Part shown: piece after piece, positions 38,646-54,397 of the stretch | Position numbering within the stretch: the stretch's first letter is position 1 | Layout: every line of letters begins with the position of its first letter | Origin: a virus | Length of the DNA: 64,000 bases | Direction: 5' to 3' (one strand) | IMG/VR virus record: IMGVR_UViG_3300044835_000040 | Coordinates: 1-64,000 of that record | The notes under the pieces: generated by a model | Database searches by the model: none | The model's input: the letters and a program-made list of their open reading frames with translations, nothing else | What the model was told of the DNA's origin: nothing | Position numbers and translations under genes: made by a program

Positions 38646-41156
38646 ATGGCTCAGCCTGTCGCCGAAGAACAGACCGTAGCCGCCCAGCAGCTCGAAGCTG
38701 AACCTCCTCCGCAGTCGCACGTCGCGGCCGTTGCTGCTGCGGCTGCCGCCGCCGCGCTCGTGACCGGCGCGCCGTCGGCGCCGACTGCGCCGTCGAAAGC
38801 CGCGGTGCGCGCTGCGACGAAGACGCTGCTCGACGGTGTGGACGCGCTGTTCCGAGCGCGCCGTCACGGGTTCGCCACGTACATCACGACGACGGCGCAG
38901 CACCAGATGCCCGGCATCGGCGCGGACAGGGTGAGCATGTTGGCCGCGGAGGAGATGCGCAACGAGGCTGAATTCCAGCGCAAGCAGCGCCAGCGTCTCG
39001 CCGAGGAGCTGCCGCAGGCGCTGCTGATCGCCGACCCGGCCAAGCGCGCTGAAGCCGTCGCGAACATCCTCGAACGCGAGAAGCGCTACATCGGCCAGCG
39101 CGAACAGGCCGCGGCACAGCGGCTGGTCGCCGCGCTCGAAGACGACCTGCTGAAGGCTGCGTCGCCGCTCGGCGCGTACTGGAAGCTCTCGCCGCTCGTG
39201 CGTGAACACTGCCTGCGGTGCCTCGCGATGGCAGGGAAGTTCTGGCCGTGGGAGGTCCTTGAAGCGCATCGGATGCCTGTGCACCCGAACTGCCAGTGCT
39301 CGAAGCTGAGCTTGGACGAGGCGGTGAACCAGGGCCTGATGACGCAGGACCAGATCCCGGCGAAGGGCGACGCCATCGCGCTCGCGACGCGACTGATGAG
39401 CGAAGCGGGGAGGCTCGAAGAGGCGCTGACGCACGAGGAGCAGCACGAGCTGGTCTCCGGCATGGAGCTGCAGGTGGTGGAGGCGTCGCTGCGCGAGATC
39501 CTGCGGTGGGGGAAGGGCACCGAGCATGGCGGCGAGTTCAAGCCGAAGTCGGGCGGCAACCCCGGCGCGGCGGTGCAGAAGGCGGCGCACCAGCTGCGTT
39601 TCGAGACGGCGCCCGCGGCGAGCGGCCGCACGGTGAAGCTGAAGGGCGAGTCGCATTGGATCCCGAAGGGCGAGGACTGGCAGCACAAGATCGGCTCGAA
39701 CGAGTACAGCTCGCCGTGGGGGACGACGCGGATCTACCGCAACGGGCAGCTGCTCTCCCAGAGCCATCACGACCTGACGGGCACGACGCCGATCGCGACG
39801 AAGCCGCACGATGGCGGCCCGTCGTTCTTCCCGGAGCTGGGCAGTCACGGGTTCGTGGGGCCGTACGTGCCGCCGCCGGAGCCGAAGATCACGCCGCGCC
39901 CGGCGCCGAAGGGTCTGGGCAAGGTGGGCATCCCGGACTACTCGGGCCGCAAGCTGGAGATCGGCAAGAGCGCGGGCGGCTCGACGGGCGCCAAATGGGC
40001 GTTCGACAAGAAAGGCAACCGGTGGCTGGTCAAGACCTACAAAGGCAACCAGGACCGTGTGGCGAGCGAGCTGCTGGCGAACGCGATCTACCGGGACCTG
40101 GGCGCGAAGGTCGCTCCGGCGGGCACCTACTACGCGAAGCTGGACGGCAAGCCGATCGTCGCGCTCACGTACCCGACGCTGGAGGGCGAGATCCGCAAAA
40201 TCAACTCGCCGAGCCGGGACCTGGGCAAGCACTACATGGCGGACGCGCTCGTCGCCAACTGGGACTTCGTGGGGCTCGCCGACGACAACGTGCTGTGGGG
40301 GCCTGACGGCAAGCCCGCTCGGCTCGATCAGGGCGGCACGTTCCAGTTCCGTGCGCAGGGCGCGCCGAAGCCCTACGGCGGCGTCCCGACTGAGGCGTGG
40401 ACGATGTTGCAGCCGAAGGGCCAGGGCTTCGGCAAGGTCGACGTGAGCGAGTCGGAAATGCGCGGGCAGGCCGCCAAGATCGCGGAGACGCTGACGCCGA
40501 CGCGCATCAAGCAGCTCGTGATGGCCGCACCGTTCGCCGACACGAAGATGGCGGGTGAGGTCGAAGCGGCGCTGAGGGAACGCGTGCAGTGGATGCGCGA
40601 CTTCAGCACGGGCGACGTGTCGCTGCCGCAGCCGTTGACTGGCGGTGAGATCGGCAAGCAGCTGCACGAGCACCAGCGGAACCTGGGGGCGTCCCCGGAG
40701 CAGCACAACGCGCTCGCGCGCTACACGAGCGACGAGGCTCTGCAGCGCCGGATGCAGGAACGGCTCCGCGCTGGGGAGAAGCTGTCGCTGGTGCAGAACG
40801 AGATGCGCAAGGGCATCGACAATCTGCTCGGGCGCGCTGCGACGCCGGAAGACCTGACGGTGTACCGGACGATGGATCCAGGGCAGCTCGGGGACCTGAG
40901 CAAGCTGGAGGGCAAGATCGTCAAAGACAAGGGCTTCGGTGGCGCCACGTCCTCGCGCGCGGCGGCGTCCGCGGCGCCGGGGATGCTGCAGATCCATGTT
41001 CCCGCCGGGTCGCGAGTCCTTCACGTGCACAGCCTCGAAGGCGTCGACAAGACCGACCCGCACAGCGAGCTGATGTTGCCTCGCGGCTCGCGGATGCGGG
41101 TGAAGGAAGTCGAGCGCCGCGGCAGCAAAACGATCGTCCACACGGTGCTCGTCTGA
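38646..41156 (+). CDS. MuF/minor-head protein fused to a kinase-like domain and an ADP-ribosyltransferase domain
   Basis: HCLRC..HPNCQC (MuF); GGSTGA..WLVK..SELLA..NWD..DN..RLDQGG (PI3/4-kinase/HipA-like); RYT..LTVYR..DKGF..TS..ELMLPRG (VIP2-like ART). Confidence 0.8.
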   Translation: MAQPVAEEQTVAAQQLEAEPPPQSHVAAVAAAAAAAALVTGAPSAPTAPSKAAVRAATKTLLDGVDALFRARRHGFATYITTTAQHQMPGIGADRVSMLAAEEMRNEAEFQRKQRQRLAEELPQALLIADPAKRAEAVANILEREKRYIGQREQAAAQRLVAALEDDLLKAASPLGAYWKLSPLVREHCLRCLAMAGKFWPWEVLEAHRMPVHPNCQCSKLSLDEAVNQGLMTQDQIPAKGDAIALATRLMSEAGRLEEALTHEEQHELVSGMELQVVEASLREILRWGKGTEHGGEFKPKSGGNPGAAVQKAAHQLRFETAPAASGRTVKLKGESHWIPKGEDWQHKIGSNEYSSPWGTTRIYRNGQLLSQSHHDLTGTTPIATKPHDGGPSFFPELGSHGFVGPYVPPPEPKITPRPAPKGLGKVGIPDYSGRKLEIGKSAGGSTGAKWAFDKKGNRWLVKTYKGNQDRVASELLANAIYRDLGAKVAPAGTYYAKLDGKPIVALTYPTLEGEIRKINSPSRDLGKHYMADALVANWDFVGLADDNVLWGPDGKPARLDQGGTFQFRAQGAPKPYGGVPTEAWTMLQPKGQGFGKVDVSESEMRGQAAKIAETLTPTRIKQLVMAAPFADTKMAGEVEAALRERVQWMRDFSTGDVSLPQPLTGGEIGKQLHEHQRNLGASPEQHNALARYTSDEALQRRMQERLRAGEKLSLVQNEMRKGIDNLLGRAATPEDLTVYRTMDPGQLGDLSKLEGKIVKDKGFGGATSSRAAASAAPGMLQIHVPAGSRVLHVHSLEGVDKTDPHSELMLPRGSRMRVKEVERRGSKTIVHTVLV

Positions 41157-42736
41157 TGGAATGGGACTTCCCGCTCCAGGTCGAATCTGACCGCGGCGGC
41201 GCCGGTCGCGACGACCCCGACAACCTGCTCGGCCCGGTCGCCACGGCGGTGCTCGACCCGGCGCCCGTCGTCGGCGAGATGCCGGAGGAGGAGCTGGCCG
41301 ACCCCGACTGGGGCGAAGCGGATCTGGATCTCCCGGAGGAGGCGGGGCCGCCGACACCGCGGCGCGTGCTGGAGGCGTTCGCCGAGTCGCTGCATCCTCG
41401 CGACCGGCTCGGAGAGTGGGCCGGGATCGGCTTCAAGGGCATCATCGACAAGCCCCTCGACGAGCCGCCGCTACCGCGCGGCCGTGTCAGCTCGGGGATG
41501 GTGCTCCGGGAGCCTGACGGCCGGACGTGGGTCTTCGAGCCGAAGGGTCACTTCGGCGGCTACGAGCACACGTTCCCGAAGGGGATGGTGGAGAAGGGCT
41601 ACTCGCCGCAGCAGAACGCGCACAAGGAGCTGTTCGAGGAGACCGGCCTGCGCGCGGAGATCACCGGCCACCTCGGCGACTACAAGGGCACGACCGGCGT
41701 CACGCGCTTCTACACGGCGACGCGTACCGGTGGCGAGCCGCTGCCGCCCGATCCGACGCCGTTCGTGGAGGGCAGCCGGGAGTCAGCAGCGGTGAAGCTC
41801 GTCACGCCGGAGGAGGCGCATGGCCTGCTGAACATGCCGCGCGACAAACGCGTGCTGAAGGACGCGCTGGCGGTGCAGGAGGGCACGTTCATGGAGGGCC
41901 TGCACCCGCGCGACCGCAATGGCAAATGGATGGACGCGGCGAGCAAAATCGCAGCGCACGGCAATCCCGCGGAGGTGGACACGCTGAGCGTCCACGCCCC
42001 CGGCGGGCAGCTCTCCCCGGAGCGCGAGGCGCTTCATCGGCAGATCATCCACGAGGCCATCGCCAACTCGGCTGAGCAGTCGCATCCCACGGCGTTGTTC
42101 ACCGCGGGCGGCGCTGCGTCGGGGAAGTCCTCACTGGTCAAGCAGCTGCACACGCCGATCGACAGCATCATGGTCAACCCGGATCTGATCAAGGAGAAAC
42201 TGCCGGAGTACCATCTGCTCCGCGAATCCGGGCACAAGGACATCGCCGCGCACGCGACGCACGAGGAGTCCAGCCACATCGCTGCGCAGATCGCCTCGAT
42301 CGCGATCAAGGGCCGCAGGAACGTGATCATCGACGGCGTGGGGGACAGCCAGTCGAGGAAGTTCGTCGGCAAGCTGCAGGCCGCGCACGATGCTGGGCAT
42401 CAGGTGACGGTCCGCTACGCCCACACGCCGGTCGACGCGGCGCTGGCGCGCGAGGACAGACGCCGCGAGCGCACCGGCCGCGCTGTCCCGCATGGCGTGC
42501 TCGAACATGCTCACCGCGAAGTCGCGCAGCGGTATCACGATGAGGTGCAGCATCTTCGCGGCGTCAAAGTCGAGATCTACGACACGAACGGGAAAGCCAA
42601 CTCGCAGGGCGACCGGCCCGCACCGAAGCTGATCGCCGAACACACGCCGGGTGGTGAGCGCGTCGTCAAGGACCGCGAGAAGTACGCTGAGTTCGTCGCG
42701 AAGCGACACCCGGCCGTCACGACCGCAGGCGAATGA
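41156..42736 (+). CDS. Nudix hydrolase / zeta-toxin-family P-loop kinase fusion
   Basis: Nudix box FPKGMVEKGYSPQQNAHKELFEETGL; zeta-like GGAASGKS, VNPDLIK, HEES, IIDG. Confidence 0.85.
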   Translation: MEWDFPLQVESDRGGAGRDDPDNLLGPVATAVLDPAPVVGEMPEEELADPDWGEADLDLPEEAGPPTPRRVLEAFAESLHPRDRLGEWAGIGFKGIIDKPLDEPPLPRGRVSSGMVLREPDGRTWVFEPKGHFGGYEHTFPKGMVEKGYSPQQNAHKELFEETGLRAEITGHLGDYKGTTGVTRFYTATRTGGEPLPPDPTPFVEGSRESAAVKLVTPEEAHGLLNMPRDKRVLKDALAVQEGTFMEGLHPRDRNGKWMDAASKIAAHGNPAEVDTLSVHAPGGQLSPEREALHRQIIHEAIANSAEQSHPTALFTAGGAASGKSSLVKQLHTPIDSIMVNPDLIKEKLPEYHLLRESGHKDIAAHATHEESSHIAAQIASIAIKGRRNVIIDGVGDSQSRKFVGKLQAAHDAGHQVTVRYAHTPVDAALAREDRRRERTGRAVPHGVLEHAHREVAQRYHDEVQHLRGVKVEIYDTNGKANSQGDRPAPKLIAEHTPGGERVVKDREKYAEFVAKRHPAVTTAGE

Positions 42737-45700
42737 GCGAGCTAGAGACCGTCATCCCGCACGACAGTGCGGACTACCTGGAGCGCAAGCCGATCCGGTA
42801 CAGCCGCAAGACGATCGTGCTCGACGACGGCTCGCAGTACGACCTGAACGCGCCGGGGCCGTTCGACCCGGCGACGACGCTCTACCAGACGCCGCTGGAT
42901 CCGGTCCTGGAGGCCGCGGTGTTCGAGACGGAGCTGCACCCGCGCTGGCCGAAAGGCTCCGGGCTCCGCTCGGGCGAGTTCATGCGCGTCGGCGAGCACT
43001 TCAAGAGCAGCGGCGTGGAGTGGGAGATCAGCCACATCGTCAAAGGCCACATCATCGCTCACCGGTACGCGACGCAGAAATCGGACGGGCCGCAGACGAA
43101 GACGTTCGAGGTGACGATGCATCCCGGCGAGGGGCACGCGCACGTCTCGGCGATTGAAGAGTTCGTGCAGGCGCCCGTGCCGAAGGGCAGCAAGTCTGGC
43201 GGCGGCACGGTGACGATCGTCAGCCCGTACGTCGACAGCAAGACGCACGACCCGTCGATCGCGGTCCCCTCCACGTCGAAGATCACGCCGGAGGAGTGGC
43301 AGCGGTTCGGGCGGCTGGATCAGCTTGTCTACGTCGAGCACCAGGAACGCTTCGGCGAGTACAAGGACTCGACGCAGACGCAGGCGCTCGTCGACGCGGC
43401 CTACCAGAAGTTCTCGAAGGCGGCTGCCGACATGGCGCGCAGCGCCTACCAGTCGCAGTACGGATCCTCCTCCGGGCACACGCTCTCGCTCGCGGATGGT
43501 CAGATCCACGGTGCGGCGCCGGAGCTGCGCGCTGAGGCGGTCGCGCTGCTCGGCGAGCACGCCGCGGCGGTGCAGTGGGATCTAATGAACCGCACGCACT
43601 CGCCGGACATCACGCTCTCGCACAAGTCCGGGCACGACAAGAGCTGGTGGCAGCAGAAAATCACCGACAAGCTGCCGGTGTTCTCGACGCTCTCGCAGGC
43701 GTGGGCGTACAAGAAGGGCGGCTTCGGCGGGCACGGCATGGTGACGCCGATGGCGATCCGGCATCTCGTGCTCTCGACGCAGAGCGCGAAGGCGTCCTCG
43801 TCGGCGTCCTCGTTCGCTGGGGAGAAAGAGGTCGCGACGCCGTACCGGTGGATCCCGGACGAGAGGTCGCTGCCGATCTCCGACGGCGATGGCTCGCAGG
43901 TCAAAGGGCTGAACTGGCTGGCTGGCGCGACGACGGTCCCGACGGGCGGCTCGGTCGCTGAAGCGCTCGTCGACTCGATCAAGAACGGGACGTATCTCGC
44001 GCCGGTCGCGCAGCCGCCGCAGATCACGATGGATGGCGCGAGCGGCAAGACATGGATCGATCCGCCGCCGGAGGCCGCCGACCCGAAGTTCGAGGGCGTC
44101 ACGCTGCCGACGGAGTATGGCGCGAAGATCCCGCCCGCGGACCTGCCGAAGGGCGTGCCGTGGAACAAGGTTGACGCTGCTGGCAACCCGGTCGCGCAGA
44201 CCGGTGAAGAGGCTGGCGCGCACGTCGGGCAGTACTTCATGGGGCTGGCTGGGACGCTCTACTGGATCGGCCCGGACCCCGGCGCTTCGGGCGGCTACCC
44301 GTACCACATCTTCAAGATCCAGAACGGCGAATTCACGTCGGAGAACTTCGGCTACAACGCCAACCAGCCGGGCTACTACACGAACAAGTCGTTCGACATC
44401 AGCAACTGGCTGGAGGTGCAGAACAAAGCGCCGGGCTTCGAGCCGTCGCTGTGGGGCGAGTCGCTGGACGCGAAGTTCCTGGAGACGTTCCAGCCGGGCG
44501 AGAAGTTCCTGCTGAACGGTACGGCGTGGGAGGTGATGCCGGGCGGCAACGGCGTGCAGGTCCCGGTGATGGATCTCAACTCGGGGCTGAAGGGCAAGAT
44601 CAACGGCACGTACAAGACGAGCTATCTCGTCCCGAAGGGCGAGGGCAGCAAGACGATCGATATGCCGTCGCCGGAGCACCAGAAGTTCCAGGAGGGCCAG
44701 TGGGTCAAGTCGGCGTTCGGTAAGGGGCTGGTCACGAAGGTCGAAGGCACCGAGGGCGTGGGGCAGCTCGTGACGGTCGAGCATGTTGGCGGTCCGTCGT
44801 CGATGAAGGCCGCGGAGTTCCCGGCGAAGGAGCTGTCGCTGTGGCCGCAGCAGGTGGGCGTGCCTGCGCTCGGGTCGACGTTCGAGCACGAGGGCAAGAA
44901 GGCGACCGTCACGAAGATCATGGCGTCCGGCAAGATCCAGGCGAACCTGAAACCGGGCAAGCTGCAGCTCTCCCCGCAGGACTTCGCTTCAGCGCACGGC
45001 CACCACGTCGTGCCGATCAGCTCGCTGCAGATCGAGCCGCAGAAGACGAAGCTGAAGGACATGGCGCCGGGGGACCTGTTCCACGGCTCTGCGGGCAACC
45101 AGACGATCCGGCCGTATCAGGTCGTCTACAAGGGCGAGGGCAGCAAAACGGTGTACGTGCAGAACCTCGACAACGGGCACGTCGAGGAGCTGTCGCGCAA
45201 CGTCAGCTACCGCCGTCTGACGCCGGTCGCTTCGGACTCCCAGATCCCGCACGATGATCAGCCGAAGGGCGCGCCGGTCAACCTGACCGGGCCGGGCGGT
45301 GTCGGTGCGGCGTGGGACCCCGCGAAGTTCGAGCCGGGGCCGTCGATCACCGCGCAGAACATGGCGGTCGGCGACTACTTCACGGGCACCTACAACGGCA
45401 TCGTCTACCAGAAGACCGAGGATACGCCGACGCACTCGAAGGTCGTCGTCGTCGACTCTGTGGGCACTGGCACCGAGGGCCAGCTACTCGAAATAGCGCA
45501 CGGCGGGACCCCGGCTCCGTTCGAGACGCTGGTGCCGAAGGCGCAGGGACCGCCGCCGGAGATCGCGTCGCCGAGCACGTTCGTGCCGGGCGACTACAAC
45601 TTCGGCCCGAAGGTGCACATCAAGGACATGCCGCTCGGCACGATCTTCCAGACCGAAGACGGCGAGCGGCACGTGATCTCGAAAGACGACGGTGGCGACA

Positions 45701-48354
45701 AGACGCTGCTCAGCCTCGACGACGGGCACGTCATCACAGTCGACAAGACGATGCTCGATGCCTCTCCGGAGGCAGTCCACACGACGCTCGTCCCGGACAC
45801 TCCGCAGCTGAGCACGCACAGCGATGGCTGGCAGACGGGGCAAACGCAAACGTCGAGCGTCGGTCATCTCGCGATCGGTGACCACTTCAAGTCCGCTTCG
45901 CCTGGGAACAACATCTTCGAGGTCACCGGGCCACCCGACGGGGAGGGCTTCGTCCCGGCGAAGCTGGTGGCGTCGTCGATGCTCAAACCGGTGATCGGGA
46001 AGGAGCTGCAGTTCCAGAAGGAGACGGTCGTGAGCACCGCTCACCCGATCCCCGGCAGCAAACCGGCGGCGCTGGAAGTCGAGGACCATTCGGTGCTCGC
46101 GGGGCCGCAGGCGACGCCGTTCGACCCGTCGAGCTACATCGAGAGCGACAAGATCAAAATCGGCGACATGGCGCCGGGCACGGTCTTCAAGACGGACTCG
46201 GTGAAGAAAGGGTCGCAGTACTACAAGCTCTCCGACGACGGCCAGCACACGACGAACCTACTGACGGGGAAGGTGTTCCCGGCGAAGCCGAAATGGCACG
46301 GCACGGTGATGGAGAAGCAGCGCACGCCGCACGTCGAGCACGAGTACACGCATCCGCCTAACTCGGCTGACCCGCCGGAAGACAGCGCGCCGCCGGAGTT
46401 CAAGTCGGTGCCGGGCACCATCGGCGCGCTGAGCAAGGGCGATACGTTCAAGGTGCCGGAGGGCTACTTCCAGGCGGGCAAGGAGTTCAAGGTCCACGAC
46501 ACCACGCCGCAGTGGCACCCGCCTGTGGGCCACCTGTCCGGCTACCACACGATTGAGGTGTCGAGCGCGGACGGCGTGTCGTCGATGGCGACGAACCTGA
46601 AGCTCGATCCGGCGCCGGAGGATCACGCGGACGGCACGGTGCTGAAGGACAAGGCGACGAACGTCACGCCGTACGCGCAGCTGAGCAAGGGCGACACGAC
46701 GACGGTCGAGGCGCTGCGCAAGGGCGACACGTTCTCGATCGCCACGTTGCCGGGGGTCTTCGAGGTCATCAAACCGGCGGGCAGGCCGAGCGACAACCTG
46801 GACGACACGACGAGCTACGCGGACGTGCAGGCGATCGAGGGCAGCGGCGCGCACATCGAAAACTTCTCCCTGCATCCGACGGGAGCGGTGCAGCTGCAGC
46901 AGAAGGCCGAGCACGTGATGCCGGTGTCGGTGCCGCAGACGTTGATCGACTCGCTGCCGGAGGCCGTCGAAAACGGCAAGCTGCAGGGGTTCAAGCAGGC
47001 GTCGGCCGGGGCGTACATCTTCACGCCGATCGAGAAGCTGCCCGCGGGCGCCATCGCCGAAGACGCGGCGGGCAAGAAGTGGCTCGTGAAGCAGCCGGGC
47101 GCGGTGCCGGTGCTGAGCAACGGCCTGTACAACTACCGCGTCCACGACCCGTCGATCAAACTGGCCGACACGGCGCAGGCGGCGTTCGGGCCGCAGGCGC
47201 CGTTCCAGGACTGGGCGGATCCGCTCGCGACCGAACCGGGCACGATGGAGCAGAAGGCCGCGAAGGCTGATCTCGTGCCGAACGCCGCGGAGATGCCGAT
47301 CGCGGGCCTGCACATCAAGGAGGGCGACTTCCTGCAGTGGAAAGGCAACGTCGCGAAGGTGCTGCCGCCGGACAACGCGAACGTGAAGGTCGAAGACGTG
47401 GTGACCGGCAAGCACTCCTACCTGTCGCAGTTGATCGTGCCGGAGAAGATCTCGCCGGGGCACACGGTCCCGGCGCCGGAGCCCGCGCCGCCGGAGCCGG
47501 AAGTGACCGCAGAGCTACCCGCTGCGCCAACGCAGTTCACGCACGCCGTCAAGGCTACGCAGTTGGCGGTAGGCGACAAGTTCACGCTCGCACCCGGTAG
47601 CGGGCACGTCTACACGGCTGGGATGGTCGGCTCAGAGATGGCGAAATACAAGGGCGACCACGGCGAGTGGCATAGCGCGATGGGCACGGTCTACACGCAG
47701 CCGGAGGCGGCTGCCGCGACAGCACCGGCCGCCGAGCCGCCGAAGGCCGCTGTAGATCCTGCCGAGCCACAGCCGGTACACACGGTCGAGGACATGGCGC
47801 CGCACCAGGAGGTGCCGCAGATCAGCGGCACGCAGATCCCGGATGCGCTGGCGCCGTTTGGGTCGCCGAAGGGCGCTGGTGGCGTGTACTCCCACATCCC
47901 GCTGAAGGAGCTGCAGGTCGGCCAGATGTTCACCGACAAGTCGGGCGAGGACTTCCAGGTGATCGGCCACCAGGGCGACAAGACGATCTACCGCTCGATG
48001 ACGACGAGCGCGCAGTTCTCGGCGGCCAGCTCGGGCAAGGTCAAGCTCACGGCGCTGCCGCCGGAACCGGGGCCGCACCTGAAGCCGGTGATCGCGGACC
48101 TGACCGCGAAGTACGGGTCGCTGGAGAACGTGCCGAAGCTCTCGCTCGAAGACGCCGCGACGAGCACGTCGGGCACGGGCGGCAAGGCGTCCAACCCGCG
48201 GCTCGGGCATCTGAAGTACGGCCAGATGGCGATGGACGGCCAGGGCCACAAGGTCGTGTTCCTCGGCAGCTGGCTGAACCGTGCGCTGGTGCTCGACGTG
48301 GCGGGCCAGCCGAAGCTGGCGCCCGCGGGCACGCGCGTCAAACTCCTCGGCTGA
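42733..48354 (+). CDS. 1873-aa multidomain protein with about 15 SH3/KOW-like repeats and a possible ART-like domain
   Basis: Repeated (I/L)xx(L/M)xxG(D/T)xF units; DITLSH..FST..GEKEV segment. Confidence 0.75.
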   Translation: MSELETVIPHDSADYLERKPIRYSRKTIVLDDGSQYDLNAPGPFDPATTLYQTPLDPVLEAAVFETELHPRWPKGSGLRSGEFMRVGEHFKSSGVEWEISHIVKGHIIAHRYATQKSDGPQTKTFEVTMHPGEGHAHVSAIEEFVQAPVPKGSKSGGGTVTIVSPYVDSKTHDPSIAVPSTSKITPEEWQRFGRLDQLVYVEHQERFGEYKDSTQTQALVDAAYQKFSKAAADMARSAYQSQYGSSSGHTLSLADGQIHGAAPELRAEAVALLGEHAAAVQWDLMNRTHSPDITLSHKSGHDKSWWQQKITDKLPVFSTLSQAWAYKKGGFGGHGMVTPMAIRHLVLSTQSAKASSSASSFAGEKEVATPYRWIPDERSLPISDGDGSQVKGLNWLAGATTVPTGGSVAEALVDSIKNGTYLAPVAQPPQITMDGASGKTWIDPPPEAADPKFEGVTLPTEYGAKIPPADLPKGVPWNKVDAAGNPVAQTGEEAGAHVGQYFMGLAGTLYWIGPDPGASGGYPYHIFKIQNGEFTSENFGYNANQPGYYTNKSFDISNWLEVQNKAPGFEPSLWGESLDAKFLETFQPGEKFLLNGTAWEVMPGGNGVQVPVMDLNSGLKGKINGTYKTSYLVPKGEGSKTIDMPSPEHQKFQEGQWVKSAFGKGLVTKVEGTEGVGQLVTVEHVGGPSSMKAAEFPAKELSLWPQQVGVPALGSTFEHEGKKATVTKIMASGKIQANLKPGKLQLSPQDFASAHGHHVVPISSLQIEPQKTKLKDMAPGDLFHGSAGNQTIRPYQVVYKGEGSKTVYVQNLDNGHVEELSRNVSYRRLTPVASDSQIPHDDQPKGAPVNLTGPGGVGAAWDPAKFEPGPSITAQNMAVGDYFTGTYNGIVYQKTEDTPTHSKVVVVDSVGTGTEGQLLEIAHGGTPAPFETLVPKAQGPPPEIASPSTFVPGDYNFGPKVHIKDMPLGTIFQTEDGERHVISKDDGGDKTLLSLDDGHVITVDKTMLDASPEAVHTTLVPDTPQLSTHSDGWQTGQTQTSSVGHLAIGDHFKSASPGNNIFEVTGPPDGEGFVPAKLVASSMLKPVIGKELQFQKETVVSTAHPIPGSKPAALEVEDHSVLAGPQATPFDPSSYIESDKIKIGDMAPGTVFKTDSVKKGSQYYKLSDDGQHTTNLLTGKVFPAKPKWHGTVMEKQRTPHVEHEYTHPPNSADPPEDSAPPEFKSVPGTIGALSKGDTFKVPEGYFQAGKEFKVHDTTPQWHPPVGHLSGYHTIEVSSADGVSSMATNLKLDPAPEDHADGTVLKDKATNVTPYAQLSKGDTTTVEALRKGDTFSIATLPGVFEVIKPAGRPSDNLDDTTSYADVQAIEGSGAHIENFSLHPTGAVQLQQKAEHVMPVSVPQTLIDSLPEAVENGKLQGFKQASAGAYIFTPIEKLPAGAIAEDAAGKKWLVKQPGAVPVLSNGLYNYRVHDPSIKLADTAQAAFGPQAPFQDWADPLATEPGTMEQKAAKADLVPNAAEMPIAGLHIKEGDFLQWKGNVAKVLPPDNANVKVEDVVTGKHSYLSQLIVPEKISPGHTVPAPEPAPPEPEVTAELPAAPTQFTHAVKATQLAVGDKFTLAPGSGHVYTAGMVGSEMAKYKGDHGEWHSAMGTVYTQPEAAAATAPAAEPPKAAVDPAEPQPVHTVEDMAPHQEVPQISGTQIPDALAPFGSPKGAGGVYSHIPLKELQVGQMFTDKSGEDFQVIGHQGDKTIYRSMTTSAQFSAASSGKVKLTALPPEPGPHLKPVIADLTAKYGSLENVPKLSLEDAATSTSGTGGKASNPRLGHLKYGQMAMDGQGHKVVFLGSWLNRALVLDVAGQPKLAPAGTRVKLLG

Positions 48355-49594: not shown

Positions 49595-49595
49595 G

Positions 49596-49901
49596 ATGGC
49601 TGTCGCGCTCCGGCCCGTCGCACCTCTGCCGCCACCGCGGGGGACCGTGCCAGAGCAGCTGAGGGTCGTGCTGGCGCGCTTGCGCGCGGACGGGCTGCTG
49701 TTCGAGCAGGCGTGGATCGAGTCGTGGGACCTGATCGCGTGGCCGCTCTCCCAGCGCGAAACGCTGGAATGGGAGAAGGCGCTCGAAGGCACGAAGGAGA
49801 CGTGGCGCGCGCGGTACGAACGCTGGGATCAGACGCCGGAGGAAAAGGCCGTCGCGGGGCTGGGCGCAGCGCTCGAAGCCGCGCTCGCCGACGCTGCCTG
49901 A
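49596..49901 (+). CDS. Hypothetical protein
   Basis: ORF in line with the operon. Confidence 0.55.
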   Translation: MAVALRPVAPLPPPRGTVPEQLRVVLARLRADGLLFEQAWIESWDLIAWPLSQRETLEWEKALEGTKETWRARYERWDQTPEEKAVAGLGAALEAALADAA

Positions 49902-49965
49902 GCGACCGATGGTCGCGCTCGTGTGATAGACTCTAGGGTGCAACCGATCCTGGAGGTACGACATG
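49901..49965 (+). promoter_or_regulatory. Class-i header variant (palindrome 49901-49917, TAGACT, GCAACCGAT, GGAGGTACGACATG)
   Basis: Read directly. Confidence 0.7.
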
Positions 49966-50178
49966 AAGGGCAGAGCGAAGGCGTGCGACAAGTCCCTGGA
50001 GGCGCTGCTTCGGCAGGCTGAAGGCAAGGGCTGCGCGATCTCTGGCGGCGGGAGCCGTCACTTCAAGATCCTCGTGCCGGGCGCGGGTATCGTGATCACG
50101 CACTCCACCGGCTCGGACAAGCGGGCGCACAAGAACACCGTGGCGCGACTGAAGCGCATGGGCGTGACCGTCGCGTAG
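49963..50178 (+). CDS. HicA-like toxin / mRNA-interferase fold protein
   Basis: GCAISGGGSRHFKI..HSTGSDKRA..LKRMG, 71 aa. Confidence 0.65.
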   Translation: MKGRAKACDKSLEALLRQAEGKGCAISGGGSRHFKILVPGAGIVITHSTGSDKRAHKNTVARLKRMGVTVA

Positions 50179-50181
50179 GGA

Positions 50182-50257
50182 TTGACAGACGCACGATCGG
50201 TGAGCTACCATCGGTCGCACTAAGCAACCGATTCACGAGGAAAGAAGGTGCGAGATG
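50182..50257 (+). promoter_or_regulatory. Class-i header: TTGACA-N18-TACCAT with palindrome variant AGCTACCATCGGTCGCA (50203-50219)
   Basis: Read directly. Confidence 0.72.
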
Positions 50258-51424
50258 AAGGCAGCAAAAGACATCGTGACGCTGGCGCAGGAGCTGAAAG
50301 ACCGCGCGGAGCGCAAGAAGGACCTGATCGTCGACGACAGGCAGATCACCGTCCTCACGACGCCGGGCGAGAAGGCGAACGAGACGGAGGTGCTGCTGCG
50401 CGAGCCCGCCGTCGGTGACGTGCTGGGGCAGACGATCGCGACGCTGGCGCCGCAGCGGATGTTCACGACGCAGCTCGGGCAGCACCTCGGCGTGCGCACG
50501 GACCTGCTCGACCGGCTCCGTGCGGAGCACCCGGTCCAGCACGATCAGCTCGTCAACGGGCTGCTCGACCGGATGCACATCGAGAAGAAGGACAAGCAGA
50601 AGCACATGGTCCGCACTTACGCCGACCCGGATGGCGGCGTCGGTGTCGCTCGCGCGCTGCTCGGCGAGGGCTACCGTCGGATCGACAACGAGGACATCGC
50701 CGAGGCCGCGCTGCCGGTGATCCTGAACGAGATCCCGACGGCTGTGGTCGACACGTGCGAGCTGACCGACACGAAGATGTACATCAAGGTGCTCGTGCCC
50801 GGAATGCAGATCAGCCTGAAGGAACTGGTCGAGCCGGGCCACCACAAGTTCCTCGACCCGAACAGCCCTGACTACGTGCAGGCGGGGTTCGTGCTGAAGA
50901 ACAGCGAGGTGGGCGGCGGTGCGCTCTCGATCGAGCACATGCTGTTCCGGCTGGTCTGCCTGAACGGCCTGATCCGCGGCAAGGCACTCTCGCGTCGTCA
51001 CGTCGGTCGCCGGAACGTCGAGGTGGCCGAGGACTACACGATCTACAGCACCGAGACCGTCGAAGCTGACGACAAGGCGCTGATGATGAAGGTCCAGGAC
51101 GCGGTGCGCCACACGGTCAACGAGGAGAAGTTCCGTGAGATCGCACAGCAGTTCGCGAGCACGGTGGCGACCGTCGAGATCGAGCAGCCGATCGAGCGGA
51201 TGCAGGTGCTGGCCCCGAAGATCGGCCTGACCCTCGGCGAGGGTCAGAGCGTCCTGGAGAAGCTGCTTGCGGGCGGCAACAAGACGCAGTTCGGGCTGAT
51301 CAACGCGATCACCGCCACGGCGCAGACGGTCGAGTCCTACGACCGCAGCGTCGAGCTGGAGGAGATCGGCGCGCAGGTGATGGACCTGAGTGGTGCCGAG
51401 TGGGGGGCGCTGGTCACCGCGTAG
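50255..51424 (+). CDS. DUF932/DUF945-family protein
   Basis: RALLGEGYRRIDN, GFVLKNSEVGGG, RLVCLNG, RRHVG, FGLINAIT. Confidence 0.8.
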   Translation: MKAAKDIVTLAQELKDRAERKKDLIVDDRQITVLTTPGEKANETEVLLREPAVGDVLGQTIATLAPQRMFTTQLGQHLGVRTDLLDRLRAEHPVQHDQLVNGLLDRMHIEKKDKQKHMVRTYADPDGGVGVARALLGEGYRRIDNEDIAEAALPVILNEIPTAVVDTCELTDTKMYIKVLVPGMQISLKELVEPGHHKFLDPNSPDYVQAGFVLKNSEVGGGALSIEHMLFRLVCLNGLIRGKALSRRHVGRRNVEVAEDYTIYSTETVEADDKALMMKVQDAVRHTVNEEKFREIAQQFASTVATVEIEQPIERMQVLAPKIGLTLGEGQSVLEKLLAGGNKTQFGLINAITATAQTVESYDRSVELEEIGAQVMDLSGAEWGALVTA

Positions 51425-51464
51425 CGATGTGCCCTAGTATTCGGGGCGGAACACACGAGGGACC

Positions 51465-51496
51465 GGGGGGCGCTTACGAGCGCCCCTCAGTCTGTT
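51465..51496 (+). terminator. Stem-loop terminator closing the island
   Basis: GGGGGGCGCT-TACG-AGCGCCCCTC. Confidence 0.6.
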
Positions 51497-51521
51497 AGGA
51501 GCGCGGCTTTACCATCGGGCT

Positions 51522-53372
51522 GTGCCGAGCACCATCCGTGCAGTCCGTCGCCAAGTCCGCGAGGCCGTCGCAAGCGGCAGTCCTCGTTCGGCGCGGACCC
51601 TGAAGCACGAACTGCCGGGCGGCGAAGTCGCCGAGCGGTACACGAGCCGCGACTACACGCACGTGACGACCAGCACCGGGCATTCCTCGGAGCCGCTGGC
51701 CGGTCACGGCAAACGGAGGGTCGTCGGCTGGCACACCTCACACGCGGCTGCGTCTCACCGTGGCCGTCAGATGGAGCGCGGCGGCTGGCTTGGCGTTCTC
51801 GTCGAGCCGGTCTGTCCGCCGCCGGGCGCGCCGCCAGCGCCGAAAGATCCTGAAGCGCCCGCGGGGACGACCCCGCCGACCGCGCCCGCCGCGGGACCCG
51901 TCACCGAGAACCAGGAGGTTGCCGTGCAGTCGACCAGTGAGATCGCAGCTGAGATCGCCTTGCGCGCGCTGGGCGGCGACGAGGCGTTCGAGCCGGTCGA
52001 GGAGGCCGGGTTCGAGGAGTCGCTTCATCCGCGGGACCGGACGGGCAAGTTCGGGATCAGCGGCCTGAAACCCGGCCACGTCGTGCAGTTCTCGCACAAG
52101 TCGCCGCGCGGGTTCCTGCAGGGCCGCATCACGGGCAAGGGCAAAGATCACGTCACGGTCAAGCTGACCGATCCAGGGACCAATCAGAACGAGATGCGCG
52201 TACACCACATGCGTCTCCGTTCGGTGCTCGTGCCCGGCGCTGGCACCGGCAAAGCGGGCACGCCGCAGGCCGACAAGTACATCCCGATCGCCGGGGTGCC
52301 GTACTCGGAACCGGGCCTGCCGAAGGGCGCGCCACGCGGCAGCACGATCGTGTCGAAGTCGACGAGCCCTGCTGCCGTCGCGGCTCGTGCGGCTGCCGCC
52401 CGGAAGGGCGCGAAACTGCCATCGCCCGCGCAGCGCAAGCAGAATGAGCTGGGCGCAATCATTGACGCGCACCAGCACAAAGGCCCCGGCGGCGACGCCG
52501 CTATGCCTTCGACGGTGCGCGATGCGCTGACGGGAATCAAGCCGGGGGAGACGAAGACCGTCGCCGGGGCGAAGGTCACGAAGCACCCGACGAAGGGGAC
52601 GTACTCGGTCGAGGGGGATCACAACCTCGCCTCGCCGTGGGTCGCGATGCAGTCGATCAAGGAACACCGTGTCGAACGGGCCGAGAAGGGCGCGGGCAAA
52701 GGACCGCTCCACGAGACGTACAGCTTCGGTGGCGTTCAGACGAAGCTCGGCGACATCATCGGGACGCTGCAGAAAGAAGGCCATTCGCAGCAGCACATCG
52801 ACCGTTACGTGCAGGGACTGAAAGCCGGGCGGCAGGTCAAAGAGGCGGTCGAGCAGGCCGTCGGCGACGTGCTGGAGGCTGGCTCGCTGGCGAAGGCGTC
52901 GTCGCCGGAGCCGTTCTCCACGTCGAAAACGTCGAACTGGGTCGCGCGGGCGGGCGGCCTGCCGCCGTACGTGCAGCACATCGCTCACGACCTGATGGAG
53001 GACAAGGATCACCCGCGCACGGAGAGCGAGGCGATCCGGCTGGCGCTCGGCATCGTCAAATCGCCGCCGAAGAACTGGAAAGCCGAAGCGCGCGCCGCTG
53101 CCAAGAAGGCGGTCGCTGAATGGGAGGCTAAAAAGGGCGCGTCGAAGGTGAAGGAGGCTGCCGGGGAGGAGATCACGGAGGCCGACTACGAGGTCGCCGC
53201 CGCGGTGCCGATCGAGGAGGCCGAAGACGCCAAGGCCAAGGCATTCTGCGTCGCGGATCGCGCCAAGGTGACGCCGACGGACAAGGGTCGCTGTCCGAAA
53301 TGCGGGCGCAAGCTCGGCAAGGCCGTCTCGGAGGCTGTGGTCGAGGCGGTGCGGGAGAGCATGTCGGCGTGA
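51522..53372 (+). CDS. Head-associated multidomain protein with HPR tag
   Basis: FEESLHPRDRTGKF; NWVARAGGLPPYVQHIA..EWEAKK actinophage head-region module; class-ii promoter at 51496-51515. Confidence 0.7.
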   Translation: MPSTIRAVRRQVREAVASGSPRSARTLKHELPGGEVAERYTSRDYTHVTTSTGHSSEPLAGHGKRRVVGWHTSHAAASHRGRQMERGGWLGVLVEPVCPPPGAPPAPKDPEAPAGTTPPTAPAAGPVTENQEVAVQSTSEIAAEIALRALGGDEAFEPVEEAGFEESLHPRDRTGKFGISGLKPGHVVQFSHKSPRGFLQGRITGKGKDHVTVKLTDPGTNQNEMRVHHMRLRSVLVPGAGTGKAGTPQADKYIPIAGVPYSEPGLPKGAPRGSTIVSKSTSPAAVAARAAAARKGAKLPSPAQRKQNELGAIIDAHQHKGPGGDAAMPSTVRDALTGIKPGETKTVAGAKVTKHPTKGTYSVEGDHNLASPWVAMQSIKEHRVERAEKGAGKGPLHETYSFGGVQTKLGDIIGTLQKEGHSQQHIDRYVQGLKAGRQVKEAVEQAVGDVLEAGSLAKASSPEPFSTSKTSNWVARAGGLPPYVQHIAHDLMEDKDHPRTESEAIRLALGIVKSPPKNWKAEARAAAKKAVAEWEAKKGASKVKEAAGEEITEADYEVAAAVPIEEAEDAKAKAFCVADRAKVTPTDKGRCPKCGRKLGKAVSEAVVEAVRESMSA

Positions 53373-54397
53373 GCGCGCGGGAGATCGCCGAGGCCGCGAC
53401 TCTGCGGATCCTGGAGCTGAGCGCGGACCAGATCCGCGCGAACGCTGTGCGGACGGTCGTCTCGGGCGCGCCGCCGCCGCAGCTGAAACAGCGGGGCCGG
53501 ACGGGCGCCGCGGCGTTTCAGCCGGGGAAGCACGCGCGTGGGCCGGGCGGCAAATTCGCGTTCGAGGGCGGCCGCGGTGCGCACGCGGCGAAGACCCCGA
53601 AGTCGCCGCAGGAAATCAAGCAGTTCCAGAAGGAATACGCGTTGCCGCAGACCGGCAAGATGGACGCCGCGACGCGGGCGACGGTCGCCTCCCCGCCGCC
53701 GCAGTCGGTGGGGCAGCTGGCGAAGTCCGAAGCGGCGAAGAAGGCGAAGGCGGAAGCCACGAAGCGCCAGGAATCGCGGGCGAAAACGAACGCCAAGCGC
53801 AAGGAAGAAGGCAAGCCGCCGGTCGGCACGAAAGCGACGGGCGCCAGCTCGCGCAGCGCCAGCGGCACCTCGACGGGCGGCACCGGCACGGGGTCGAGTC
53901 GCAGCACCTCTCGCTCGGGCAGCTCGCGTAGCTCGTCGTCGAGCGCGGCTGCCCGCACGGAAGCTGCGGCTGAAGCGGCCGAACGCAAGGGCGCGACCGC
54001 GCGGCACGCCATCGGCAAGGCGATGTCGGGGATCTCCTGGACGGGGAGGCTGAACGTCAACGAAAACCTGCAGGTAGGCAAGGGCATGGAAAAGGGCCAG
54101 CCGCCGTCACCGGCCGTCGGCCTGCTGCAAGCCAAGCTGGTCAACCTCGGCTTCAATGTCGGCTCGACGGGCGTGGACGGGAAGTTCGGTCCGGCGACGC
54201 AGATGGCGATCAAGATCCTGCAGCGCGAATACGGGATCAAGCCGACGGGTATCGTCGAATCGGCCACGCTGCAGCTGCTGGAAACGCTGACCGAACGCGC
54301 GCAGAAGTGGCAGAAGCACGGCATCATCGCCGCGGCGATCGTGCCCGGTGAGACCTTCGCGGCGCAGACGCGTCGTGTGCTCGCCGTGCTCAGCTGA
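53369..54397 (+). CDS. Peptidoglycan-binding-domain protein (two PG_binding_1-like units)
   Basis: IKQFQKEYALPQTGKMD and LQAKLVNLGF..DGKFGPATQMAIK.LQ..GIKPTGIV. Confidence 0.8.
   Translation: MSAREIAEAATLRILELSADQIRANAVRTVVSGAPPPQLKQRGRTGAAAFQPGKHARGPGGKFAFEGGRGAHAAKTPKSPQEIKQFQKEYALPQTGKMDAATRATVASPPPQSVGQLAKSEAAKKAKAEATKRQESRAKTNAKRKEEGKPPVGTKATGASSRSASGTSTGGTGTGSSRSTSRSGSSRSSSSSAAARTEAAAEAAERKGATARHAIGKAMSGISWTGRLNVNENLQVGKGMEKGQPPSPAVGLLQAKLVNLGFNVGSTGVDGKFGPATQMAIKILQREYGIKPTGIVESATLQLLETLTERAQKWQKHGIIAAAIVPGETFAAQTRRVLAVLS

What the first reader, a model, noticed from the sequence alone, without database searches (positions are those of the whole stretch)
38646..54397. Shared 'HPR..G.F/W' tag after Glu|Ala/Gly sites in five head-region proteins: a possible protease-released cargo packaging/ejection system
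Seen: VEASLREILRWGKGTEHGGEF (~39475-39540), LEAFAESLHPRDRLGEW (~41370-41420), QEGTFMEGLHPRDRNGKW (~41875-41930), LEAAVFETELHPRWPKGSGLRSGEF (~42905-42980), VEEAGFEESLHPRDRTGKF (~51995-52052) and FQPGKHARGPGGKF (~53515-53557). Each tag sits upstream of a different cargo region (kinase/ART, Nudix, zeta, repeat protein, basic domain, PG-binding). Five of the six follow an E|A/G site. Similar sites occur in the protease/scaffold (LLEAA, IQEAT, VSEAA) and MCP N-terminus (IFEAF, VQET). Established: T4 gp21 and phiKZ-type prohead proteases cleave after Glu. Inference: these are polyproteins cut in the prohead so that each effector gains an N-terminal tag for DNA/portal binding and injection.
Basis: partly seen in the sequence, partly recalled or inferred. 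Interest (0 to 1): 0.75.

Follow-up and report, generated by a model that had tools for sequence, protein, structure and literature searches.

The report
Cut-site-plus-tag headers on phage head cargo
Enzymes encoded between the portal and capsid genes of this uncultured 129-kb phage each start with a short peptide tag found in thousands of phage proteins, preceded by a likely cutting site for the phage's T4-type head protease, so they are probably cut apart inside the capsid and injected with the DNA.

Summary
Four of the six sites (nt 41369, 41876, 42907, 51996) are clear copies of a peptide tag with consensus [FW]xExxHPR[DG]xxG[KR][FW]. Two (39477, 53516) are plausible degenerate copies that fail a statistical test. 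The tag is not special to this phage. A profile of it finds at least 2,813 protein clusters among 1.84 billion, with up to 17 copies per protein. It sits at domain junctions of phage "polyvalent" proteins, after portal, MuF or protease domains and before Nudix, ADP-ribosyltransferase, zeta-kinase, topoisomerase IB and other domains.

What is lineage-specific is the hydrophobic-x-Glu-[Ala/Gly] motif just upstream. The gene at 54442-55791 has the fold of T4 prohead protease gp21 (Z 11.9), fused to a scaffold. h-x-E-A is the most over-represented such pattern in that protein family and is conserved at the capsid protein's N-terminus.

Cleavage after Glu that leaves tag-headed enzymes in the head is therefore well supported by comparison but unproven. 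What the universal tag itself does is unknown. I found no paper describing it.

The parts
34631..36835 (+). portal protein (734 aa) with a long C-terminal extension
   Evidence: phrog_10963 portal, E 9.9e-26; weak Phage_portal_2
38646..41156 (+). 836-aa head protein: MuF-like core (..W..HPNCQC, aa ~163-227), degenerate tag, unassigned middle region, C-terminal ADP-ribosyltransferase
   Evidence: ADPrib_exo_Tox aa 676-825, E 2.3e-10; hhalign to 5 MuF domains prob 51%, E 1.5e-4; middle region has no Pfam hit
39477..39539 (+). degenerate long-form tag VEASLREILRWGKGTEHGGEF, preceded by V-V-E|A
   Evidence: sequence; resembles the HPRHPAGTEQGGEW form of P0122; not detected by the tag HMM
41156..42736 (+). 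526-aa two-module protein: acidic leader (1-73), tag-Nudix, tag-Zeta kinase
   Evidence: NUDIX aa 110-232, Zeta_toxin aa 305-481; the leader plus tag is conserved in P0214, which carries a different cargo
41369..41419 (+). tag LEAFAESLHPRDRLGEW with V-L-E|A site
   Evidence: 14.8 bits, i-E 0.002 with an independent HMM
41876..41929 (+). tag QEGTFMEGLHPRDRNGKW with V-Q-E|G site
   Evidence: 15.4 bits, i-E 0.0012
42733..48354 (+). 1873-aa protein without Pfam family; one N-terminal tag
42907..42981 (+). long-form tag LEAAVFETELHPRWPKGSGLRSGEF with V-L-E|A site
   Evidence: same form as HPRWPAGDERGGEF in P0122; found by the regex with variable spacer
51522..53372 (+). 616-aa protein (true start probably further downstream), tag at aa 159-177, C-terminal part rich in h-x-E-A
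   Evidence: 9 h-x-E-[AG] against 2.0 in shuffles
51996..52052 (+). best tag VEEAGFEESLHPRDRTGKF with V-E-E|A site
   Evidence: 30.6 bits, E 2.3e-8
53300..54397 (+). 365-aa protein with two PG_binding_1 repeats; a start at the GTG near 53369 is likely
   Evidence: PG_binding_1 E 2.5e-20; sequence
53516..53557 (+). degenerate tag FQPGKHARGPGGKF, no upstream Glu site
   Evidence: keeps F(-5), P(-3), H, R, GKF and a G-rich tail, but scores 1.2 bits, not significant
54442..55791 (+). prohead protease of T4 gp21 fold (aa ~3-178; invariant H74, S143) fused to a helical scaffold-like domain
   Evidence: AF2 model, pLDDT >90 over aa 30-180; 5jbl_A Z 11.9, rmsd 3.1, 139 aligned; invariant residues
55003..55014 (+). 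L-L-E|A at the end of the protease domain, candidate self-cleavage site
   Evidence: conserved in 49 homologues
55174..55185 (+). I-Q-E|A after a hypervariable linker, candidate cleavage site
   Evidence: E247 invariant and A248 nearly so in 49 homologues
56292..57380 (+). major capsid protein
   Evidence: Phage_capsid_4 E 9e-31
56346..56360 (+). I-F-E|A-F near the capsid protein N-terminus, candidate maturation site
   Evidence: h-h-E-[AG]-[YFW] in 52 of 55 related capsid genes

Best explanation
The five proteins between the portal and the protease/capsid genes are head-packaged effector ('polyvalent') proteins built from units of the form: cleavage site, then tag, then linker, then enzyme.

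The tag, [FW]xExxHPR[DG]xxG[KR][FW], is usually followed by a Gly/Ser-rich stretch. It is a universal header of such units in many tailed phages. In this lineage each header is immediately preceded by hydrophobic-x-Glu-[Ala/Gly], the site type of the phage's own T4-gp21-like prohead protease.

Proposed sequence of events:
1. The precursors enter the prohead through a MuF-like anchor or an N-terminal leader.
2. The protease cuts after the Glu. It also cuts itself, the scaffold and the capsid protein N-terminus.
3. Nudix, zeta-kinase, ADP-ribosyltransferase, peptidoglycan-binding and other modules are left free in the head, each with the tag at its new N-terminus.
4. These modules leave with the DNA at infection.

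Shown: the tags and their distribution, the protease fold, and the enrichment and conservation of the site motif. Inferred: packaging, cleavage, injection. The biochemical role of the tag itself remains open. Possibilities include a compact knob recognised by a conserved partner, such as the assemblin-fold protease (as an exosite) or the ejection path.
For: Tag reality and spread:
- Of 121 distinct contexts, 113 have F/W at -5 and 98 have E at -3. Neither position was part of the pattern.
- A profile search of 1,835,955,588 representatives gave 2,813 proteins at E<=1e-3 and 266 at E<=1e-10, with 3 to 17 tags in each of the 18 top-scoring proteins fetched and a median spacing of about 260 aa.

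Junction position:
- Of 65 tag-bearing ORFs of at least 300 aa, 20 have the tag after a portal domain, 5 after MuF, and 6 beside DUF2213 or Peptidase_S78_2.
- NUDIX (9), ADP-ribosyltransferase (9), topoisomerase IB (8), Zeta, RelA_SpoT, GNAT, LPD3/13, InPase and 2H domains lie on the other side.
- Many tags lie within the first 10-50 residues of a protein.
- Zeta modules of other phages carry their own tag 50-90 aa upstream.

Protease:
- The model of 54442-55791 matches T4 gp21 (5jbl_A) at Z 11.9, rmsd 3.1 A, 139 of 165 residues. The next row is at Z 7.4 and falls on the helical part.
- H74 and S143 are invariant in 49 homologues.

Site motif:
- Among all [LIVM]-x-X-Y patterns in the 49 protease-scaffold homologues, E-A ranks first (496 observed against 73.6 expected), followed by E-S and E-N, with E-G seventh.
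- Each of the 49 exceeds 500 composition-preserving shuffles; the total is 605 against 121.
- The motif is fixed at the end of the protease domain, after a hypervariable linker, and at the capsid N-terminus in 52 of 55 relatives.

Link of site to tag:
- 4 of 4 clear tags and 1 degenerate tag in the window carry the site.
- 10 of 11 tags in related phages that share this protease family carry it.
- Only 7 of 121 tags in the general set do.

Precedent:
- T4 Alt and the internal proteins are loaded into the head and cut by gp21. SPN3US and phiKZ head proteins are cut at A/S-x-E, and their proteases cut their own C-termini (PMC5694885, passages).
- A Nudix homologue in Yersinia phage fHe-Yen8-01 is annotated as particle-associated.
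- phi24B packages a 2811-aa polyvalent protein (preprint 10.64898/2026.04.10.717836, passages).
Against: - There is no proteomic or experimental datum for this phage or any close relative. It is uncultured, and the nearest cultured capsid genes are under 30% identical.
- h-x-E-A could be a by-product of amphipathic helices. The scaffold is helical, and the segments upstream of tags in relatives look helical. Residue shuffles do not control for helical periodicity.
- The 49 homologues are related, so the statistics overstate independence.
- The site pattern was defined after seeing the data.
- One relative's tag (L145, nt 4263) and the window's 53516 site lack the Glu site.
- The phi24B capsid protein, cited in that preprint, is not N-terminally processed, so processing of this capsid type is not general. 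N4 vRNAP and phi24B gp47 are examples of large packaged proteins reported or assumed intact (PMC5512222 passages).
- Nothing tested here says what the universal tag binds.
Confidence: 0.55

Rival explanations
1. The tag is an uncleaved junction element. It would be a small structured knob plus flexible linker that separates domains in polyvalent proteins and serves as a conserved joint for swapping domain cassettes by recombination, in the manner of pre-toxin motifs in polymorphic toxins. The proteins would stay intact in the head, and the upstream h-x-E-A would simply be the end of a helix.
For: - Tags punctuate proteins with up to 17 modules at about 260-aa spacing.
- Sequences flanking the tags are alike within a protein but differ between proteins, as expected from duplication or gene conversion.
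- AF2 gives the isolated tag a defined turn with a beta-bridge (mean pLDDT 76.9, and 87 over residues 11-20), followed by a low-confidence tail.
- Large packaged proteins can remain unprocessed, for example N4 vRNAP (PMC5512222 passages).
Against: - Effectors fused to the portal (20 of 65 ORFs) cannot leave the capsid unless they are cut off.
- The lineage-specific Glu site next to the tags is the same motif that is fixed in the gp21-like protease-scaffold and at the capsid N-terminus.
- Tags at the extreme N-terminus of single-domain proteins are not junctions.
Confidence: 0.25
2. The tag acts after injection. It would be recognised by a conserved host component, such as a chaperone, a protease or another hub protein, that refolds, processes or localises the injected modules. 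This would explain why the tag is nearly invariant across phages with different head proteins.
For: HPR[DG]xxG[KR][FW] is almost unchanged across phages with three portal Pfam families and several protease families. That is unusual for a contact with a fast-evolving phage partner.
Against: - No host partner is known or suggested by any search.
- No solved structure holds the motif. The only row in a PDB profile search was Cyclin-Y at E 0.49.
- Hosts of these phages span distant phyla, so the partner would have to be universal.
Confidence: 0.12
3. Chance or compositional artefact: HPR and G.F arise often in a 68% G+C genome, and the similarity is not homology.
For: HPR is frequent in non-coding frames of this genome, with 18-24 per minus-strand frame. 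Two of the six sites fail the HMM test.
Against: - The full motif occurs only in + coding frames inside one 11-kb gene block.
- An independent HMM gives E 2e-8 for the best site.
- Positions outside the search pattern are conserved in 113 and 98 of 121 foreign contexts.
Confidence: 0.01

Closest known systems
Phage-type polyvalent proteins and MuF/portal-fused effectors (Iyer, Burroughs, Anand, de Souza, Aravind 2017, PMC5512222)
   Same: - Multidomain effectors encoded among head genes and anchored by MuF or portal domains.
- The same domain repertoire: ADP-ribosyltransferase, Nudix, zeta kinase, InPase, 2H, RelA/SpoT, LPDs.
- Predicted to be packaged and injected, with proteolytic release of modules proposed.
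   Different: That paper proposes zincin-like metallopeptidase domains as the processing agents. In the passages I read it does not mention this tag; the string 'HPR' occurs only inside 'HHPRED'. Its supplementary alignments on an FTP site were not available to me.

Here the punctuation is a short conserved peptide, and the candidate processing enzyme is the gp21-type prohead protease.
Capsid targeting sequence (CTS) of T4 internal proteins IPI-III and Alt, removed by prohead protease gp21
   Same: - A gp21-fold protease.
- A hydrophobic-x-Glu cleavage motif.
- Head-packaged enzymes, including an ADP-ribosyltransferase, that are injected with the DNA.
- A short shared N-terminal peptide on unrelated cargo.
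   Different: In T4 the shared peptide lies before the cut and is discarded. Here the shared tag lies after the putative cut and would stay on the cargo. The tag has no sequence likeness to the T4 CTS (recalled, not tested), recurs inside polyproteins, and occurs in phages with other protease families.
Long propeptides and A/S-x-E processing of ejection proteins in giant phages SPN3US, phiKZ, 201phi2-1 (PMC5694885)
   Same: - Many inner-head or ejection proteins are cut after Glu by a gp21-like protease.
- The protease cuts its own C-terminus.
- Propeptides are thought to target proteins into the prohead.
   Different: No universal post-cleavage tag is reported there (passages only). Those phages have neither MuF/portal-fused polyvalent proteins nor this motif, as far as I read.
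MuF polymorphic toxins of temperate phages (Jamet et al. 2017, PMC5576092)
   Same: An N-terminal MuF-type domain followed by a variable C-terminal toxin-like enzyme, as in the 836-aa MuF-like/ART protein.
   Different: No immunity gene was looked for here. The paper's main text has no occurrence of 'motif', 'linker' or 'cleav', so it describes no junction tag.
Junction motifs of polymorphic toxins (VENN of CdiA, DPxGL of Rhs) and cargo-loading peptides of encapsulins (all recalled, no call)
   Same: Short conserved peptides that mark the border of exchangeable cargo (VENN, DPxGL) or load cargo into an HK97-fold shell (encapsulin).
   Different: Different sequences and different systems. This is an analogy only, and none of it was tested here.

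Membership tests
Phage-type polyvalent proteins (Iyer et al. 2017) | Two or more unrelated effector domains in one polypeptide | tested here: met
   NUDIX plus Zeta_toxin in 41156-42736; MuF-like plus ADPrib_exo_Tox in 38646-41156
Phage-type polyvalent proteins (Iyer et al. 2017) | Encoded among head/packaging genes, with MuF or portal as anchor | tested here: met
   All tag genes lie between the portal (34631) and the protease/capsid genes (54442, 56292). MuF likeness is only modest: hhalign prob 51%, E 1.5e-4; Pfam's Phage_Mu_F did not hit
Phage-type polyvalent proteins (Iyer et al. 2017) | Packaged in the virion and delivered to the host | not testable with these tools
   Uncultured phage. 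The only support is by analogy: the fHe-Yen8-01 annotation and phi24B gp47
T4 gp21-type prohead protease (assemblin fold) | Fold of T4 gp21 | tested here: met
   5jbl_A Z 11.9, rmsd 3.1, 139 aligned, model 3-178. VZV protease Z 5.7. Foldseek alone found nothing: best E 0.1, HSV-1 protease at E 0.29
T4 gp21-type prohead protease (assemblin fold) | Conserved His then Ser catalytic residues | tested here: inconclusive
   H74 and S143 are invariant in 49 homologues, in the His-then-Ser order. I did not obtain their superposition on the gp21 catalytic residues
T4 gp21-type prohead protease (assemblin fold) | Cleavage after Glu in hydrophobic-x-Glu | not testable with these tools
   Indirect only: h-x-E-A is the top-ranked pattern (496 against 73.6), with conserved positions
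T4 capsid targeting sequence (CTS) | Shared N-terminal peptide that lies before the cleavage site and is removed | tested here: not met
   The shared tag lies after the candidate Glu site in 5 of 6 cases. The tag is therefore not a CTS in the T4 sense. The acidic leader of 41156-42736, shared with P0214, could play that part
T4 capsid targeting sequence (CTS) | Sufficient to load foreign proteins into proheads | not testable with these tools
   Needs an assembly experiment
MuF polymorphic toxins (Jamet et al. 2017) | MuF N-terminal domain, C-terminal toxin, adjacent immunity gene, temperate phage | tested here: inconclusive
   MuF-like core and C-terminal ART are present. Immunity gene and lifestyle were not examined
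Known Pfam/PHROG family for the tag itself | A curated model covering the tag | tested here: not met
   No Pfam family at E<=10 on the 115-aa N-terminal piece with the first clear tag, or across the tag of the 616-aa protein. No PHROG for the 616-aa and 1873-aa proteins

The most novel reading that the evidence does not exclude
The invariant [FW]xExxHPR[DG]xxG[KR][FW] knob is a universal export signal of tailed phages. Every head-packaged effector module would need this header to be handled by a conserved part of the head or ejection machinery, either the assemblin-fold protease acting through an exosite or the portal/tail channel at ejection. It would then play the role for phage-injected proteins that secretion signals play for bacterial secretion systems. 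A simple profile search for it would list the injected effector repertoire of thousands of uncultured phages.
Probability: 0.2. Interest if true: 0.85.

Novelty: new variant of a known kind. Interest (0 to 1): 0.62.

Why it matters
Proteins that phages inject with their DNA (counter-defence enzymes, host take-over factors) are hard to recognise from sequence. A short header found in at least 2,813 protein clusters, always at the start of an enzyme module in head-gene neighbourhoods, would be a practical marker for such cargo. It would also mark the module borders.

The pairing of a universal tag with a lineage-specific protease site makes a concrete model testable: polyprotein processing inside a phage head. 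The pairing also suggests a portable handle for loading foreign proteins into capsids. If the tag turns out to be needed for exit through the tail, it would address the open question of how folded proteins are selected for ejection.

Tried and rejected
- Complex prediction (tag against protease-scaffold) was not available, so no binding test was made.
- Foldseek against the PDB gave no match for the protease model at E<=0.001. Only VIA-align found gp21.
- hhalign of the protease-scaffold family against four DUF2213 domains showed no relation (prob 0.2%).
- A PDB profile search with the tag gave one chance-level row, Cyclin-Y at E 0.49.
- The ESM Atlas had no usable hit for residues 127-270 of the 616-aa protein.
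- megablast of the 15.7-kb region against phage records found no match.
- The search for related loci with the Nudix-Zeta protein found no relative.
- tblastn with short tag peptides gave only weak rows (E 0.1-9). In cultured phages these were Pseudomonas phages Orisa/Orimi, the Xanthomonas PhiXhv-5 portal, the Faecalibacterium FP_Brigit portal, a Helicobacter prophage portal and Thermus phage Riverbug. Among 72,556 plasmids there was one weak row. This is too insensitive to say that plasmids lack the tag.
- The Yersinia phage Nudix homologue has 'HHPRLGETGK', which is not the tag.
- Literature: string searches for LHPR, HPRD, LHPRD, EHPRD, KHPRD, HPRDxxG, LHPRxxxG, HPRxxxG and HPRDx returned only unrelated papers. 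Topic searches and passages of PMC5512222, PMC5576092, PMC5694885 and the phi24B preprint gave no description of the motif.
- Considered and rejected: the tag as a DNA-binding element (the consensus is acidic), and the tag as a T4-type CTS (it lies on the wrong side of the cut).

Full report
**What the window is.** The window is the first 64 kb of a single 129,070-bp contig with 66-70% G+C. The + strand carries these genes:
- a large terminase at 22933-24789;
- a portal at 34631-36835;
- the five proteins of the finding at 38646-54397;
- a 449-aa protein at 54442-55791;
- a small gene;
- a Phage_capsid_4 major capsid protein at 56292-57380;
- a tail sheath at 61109-62608.

No cultured phage is close. 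megablast of the 15.7-kb region found nothing, and the best capsid matches are at or below 28% identity. Homologues of the 449-aa protein sit on metagenomic contigs of 105-127 kb.

**Checking the observation.** All six peptides exist at the stated places. A six-frame scan of the whole genome finds HPR...G.[FW] three times, and four times with a variable spacer. All lie in these genes.

To get an independent yardstick I scanned IMG/VR for a degenerate DNA pattern encoding HPRDxxGKF. In 121 distinct contexts, positions that the pattern did not fix are conserved:
- F or W at -5 in 113 of 121;
- E at -3 in 98 of 121, with P in 13;
- a Gly/Ser-rich stretch after the final F.

An HMM built from 111 of these foreign contexts was scored against all 2,124 six-frame segments of this genome:

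| Site (nt of the His) | Score | E-value |
|---|---|---|
| 52026 | 30.6 bits | 2e-8 |
| 41903 | 15.4 bits | about 1e-3 |
| 41393 | 14.8 bits | about 1e-3 |
| best unrelated hit | 3.4 bits | not significant |
| 53531 | 1.2 bits | not significant |
| 42937, 39477 | not found | - |

The HMM was built only from HPRD..GKF forms, so it penalises variants. The 42937 peptide (HPRWPKGSGLRSGEF) has the form of a long variant that occurs eight times in one metagenomic MuF protein, whose last copy reads HPRWPAGDERGGEF. I accept it as a tag. The 39477 peptide (LRWGKGTEHGGEF) resembles that long form but has lost HPR. It lies about 55 residues after the MuF-like HPNCQC motif, where MuF fusions elsewhere carry their tag. 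The 53516 peptide keeps F(-5), P(-3), H, R, GKF and the G-rich tail. Both are plausible degenerate copies but are not demonstrated. Hence my verdict of 'partly confirmed'.

**What the tag is.** A profile of 114 contexts, searched against 1.84 billion representative proteins, found 2,813 proteins at E<=1e-3 and 266 at E<=1e-10. A single tag can hardly reach such E-values, so this is a lower bound that favours multi-tag proteins. The 18 top-scoring proteins I fetched hold 3 to 17 tags each, spaced 128-1003 residues apart with a median of about 260.

Pfam scans covered 65 tag-bearing IMG/VR ORFs of at least 300 aa (12 shorter ORFs of the 77 non-redundant ones were left out) and 17 of the 18 multi-tag proteins (P0091 was too long). 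The architecture is consistent:
- The tag follows a portal domain in 20 of 65 ORFs, across three Pfam portal families.
- It follows MuF in 5 of 65, and 5 of the 17 multi-tag proteins have a MuF domain.
- It lies next to a DUF2213 or Peptidase_S78_2 head-protease-like domain in 6 of 65 ORFs, and 1 of the 17 has a DUF2213 domain.
- It precedes or separates NUDIX, ADP-ribosyltransferase, topoisomerase IB, Zeta, RelA_SpoT, GNAT, LPD3, LPD13, InPase, 2H and other domains.
- 14 of the 65 and 5 of the 17 had no Pfam hit.

Many tags lie within the first 10-50 residues of a protein. Zeta-kinase modules of unrelated phages each carry their own tag 50-90 residues upstream. So the tag behaves as the header of a module.

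These proteins are the phage-type 'polyvalent proteins' of Iyer et al. 2017 (PMC5512222). In the passages I read, that paper does not mention the motif. No Pfam model covers the tag in the window's proteins, and no solved structure holds it. AF2 on the 33-residue tag with its alignment gives a compact turn with one beta-bridge (mean pLDDT 76.9, and 87 over residues 11-20). This is only a weak hint of intrinsic structure.

**The protease.** The 449-aa protein has no Pfam or PHROG match. A model built on 49 homologues is confident over residues 30-180. Foldseek found nothing. An all-against-representatives structural search put T4 prohead protease gp21 (5jbl_A) first at Z 11.9, rmsd 3.1 A, 139 residues aligned over model residues 3-178. 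That stands clear of the next rows (Z 7.4 or below), which fall on the helical C-terminal half. A herpesvirus assemblin appears at Z 5.7. His74 and Ser143 are invariant in the family. The C-terminal half is long helices, as expected for a scaffold.

**The Glu site.** Five of the six window tags are preceded within a few residues by V-x-E-[AG]. Several comparisons bear on whether this is a protease site.

- It is not part of the universal tag. Only 7 of 121 general contexts have [LIVM]-x-E-[AGS] in the same slot.
- It is lineage-specific. In 64 IMG/VR loci related through the protease-scaffold gene I found 11 tags. Ten are preceded by [LV]-x-E-[AGIV], and eight of those by A or G. One, L145 at nt 4263, is not.
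- The same motif marks the head proteins of this lineage:
  - In the 49 protease-scaffold homologues, h-x-E-A is the most over-represented of all h-x-X-Y patterns (496 against 73.6 expected), followed by E-S and E-N, with E-G seventh.
  - Each homologue exceeds all 500 composition-preserving shuffles.
  - The motif is fixed at the end of the protease domain (L188-L-E-A in the window) and after a hypervariable linker (I245-Q-E-A, with E247 invariant).
  - The capsid protein N-terminus carries h-h-E-[AG]-[YFW] in 52 of 55 relatives (I19-F-E-A-F in the window). This even resembles the front of the tags, for example V-L-E-A-F-A-E.
- The window's scaffold has 13 such motifs against 2.5 in shuffles. 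The 616-aa protein has 9 against 2.0.

T4 gp21 and its giant-phage relatives cut after Glu in hydrophobic- or small-x-Glu motifs. They chop scaffolds into small pieces and trim their own C-termini (PMC5694885, passages).

The comparative pattern is what such a protease would leave. There are caveats:
- helical periodicity could contribute to the enrichment;
- the homologues are not independent;
- I defined the pattern after seeing the data.

**Model.** Each cargo gene reads as leader or anchor, then one or more units of Glu site, tag, linker and enzyme. For 41156-42736 this gives:
- an acidic leader (residues 1-73), which recurs in metagenomic protein P0214 in front of a different cargo;
- then tag-Nudix;
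- then tag-Zeta.

Cleavage would free Nudix-sized and Zeta-sized proteins inside the head, each headed by the tag. Portal-fused effectors in other phages make some such release necessary if they are to be injected.

The tag itself would stay on the cargo. This is the opposite of the T4 capsid targeting sequence, which is cut off. Its near invariance across phages with different portals and proteases points to a conserved partner or an intrinsic role. Its acidic consensus argues against DNA binding.

**Known or new.** The gene class (polyvalent or MuF-fused effectors) and the principle (head cargo processed by a gp21-type protease) are known. I found two things in no paper:
- the universal header peptide;
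- its pairing with lineage-specific protease sites.

I read passages of four papers. The FTP supplements of Iyer et al. were not available to me.

Earlier notes of this scan describe the same motif on other DNA: e1-5361303, e1-5966457, e1-6049366 and probably e1-5944209. Within the scan, therefore, this is a repeat sighting, with a better-defined protease in this case. I class it as a new variant of a known kind.

Noticed in passing
window 42733-48354: The 1873-aa protein has no Pfam or PHROG family and no BLAST-detectable internal repeats. It does carry at least five copies of a loose h-x-h-G-[DT]-x-F motif, each opening what looks like a small beta unit (for example at aa 84, 877, 966, 1046 and 1611). 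It may be an array of very divergent small beta-barrel domains.
   Followed up: partly
window 51900-52000 and 53369-53440: The segments just before the tags of the 616-aa and 365-aa proteins share a helix-like leader (..SEIAAEIALRAL.. and ..AREIAEAATLRIL..). The annotated starts of both ORFs are probably too far upstream. The 365-aa ORF likely starts at the GTG overlapping the stop of the previous gene, near 53369.
   Followed up: no
window 36782-36835 (portal C-terminus): The portal ends with ..GILGEAFAKALGSLEMTEH. It contains L-G-E-A-F, the same h-x-E-A-F string as the capsid N-terminus and the first clear tag. This is possibly another protease site that trims the portal tail.
   Followed up: no
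window 63035-63751: A LAGLIDADG homing endonuclease ORF (Pfam E 5e-14) lies just after the tail sheath gene.
   Followed up: no
window 14020-15893: A papain-family cysteine protease (Peptidase_C1, E 1e-7) and a calcineurin-like phosphoesterase lie in the early region. A DUF5925/AAA ATPase is at 6873-7991 and a collagen-repeat protein at 25296-26762.
   Followed up: no
window 50255-51424: A DUF932 protein (phrog_1362, E 1.6e-48) sits inside the cargo block between the giant protein and the 616-aa protein. It has no tag.
   Followed up: no
P0059 (metagenomic protein): One seven-tag polyvalent protein carries a Peptidase_C39-like domain. Its tags are all preceded by a conserved V-P-[LIF]-[ES]-L-[SA] string. 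Other proteins have their own conserved pre-tag strings, for example A-A-[AG]-W or V-A-A-G-D-F. This suggests that each lineage pairs the universal tag with its own upstream element.
   Followed up: partly
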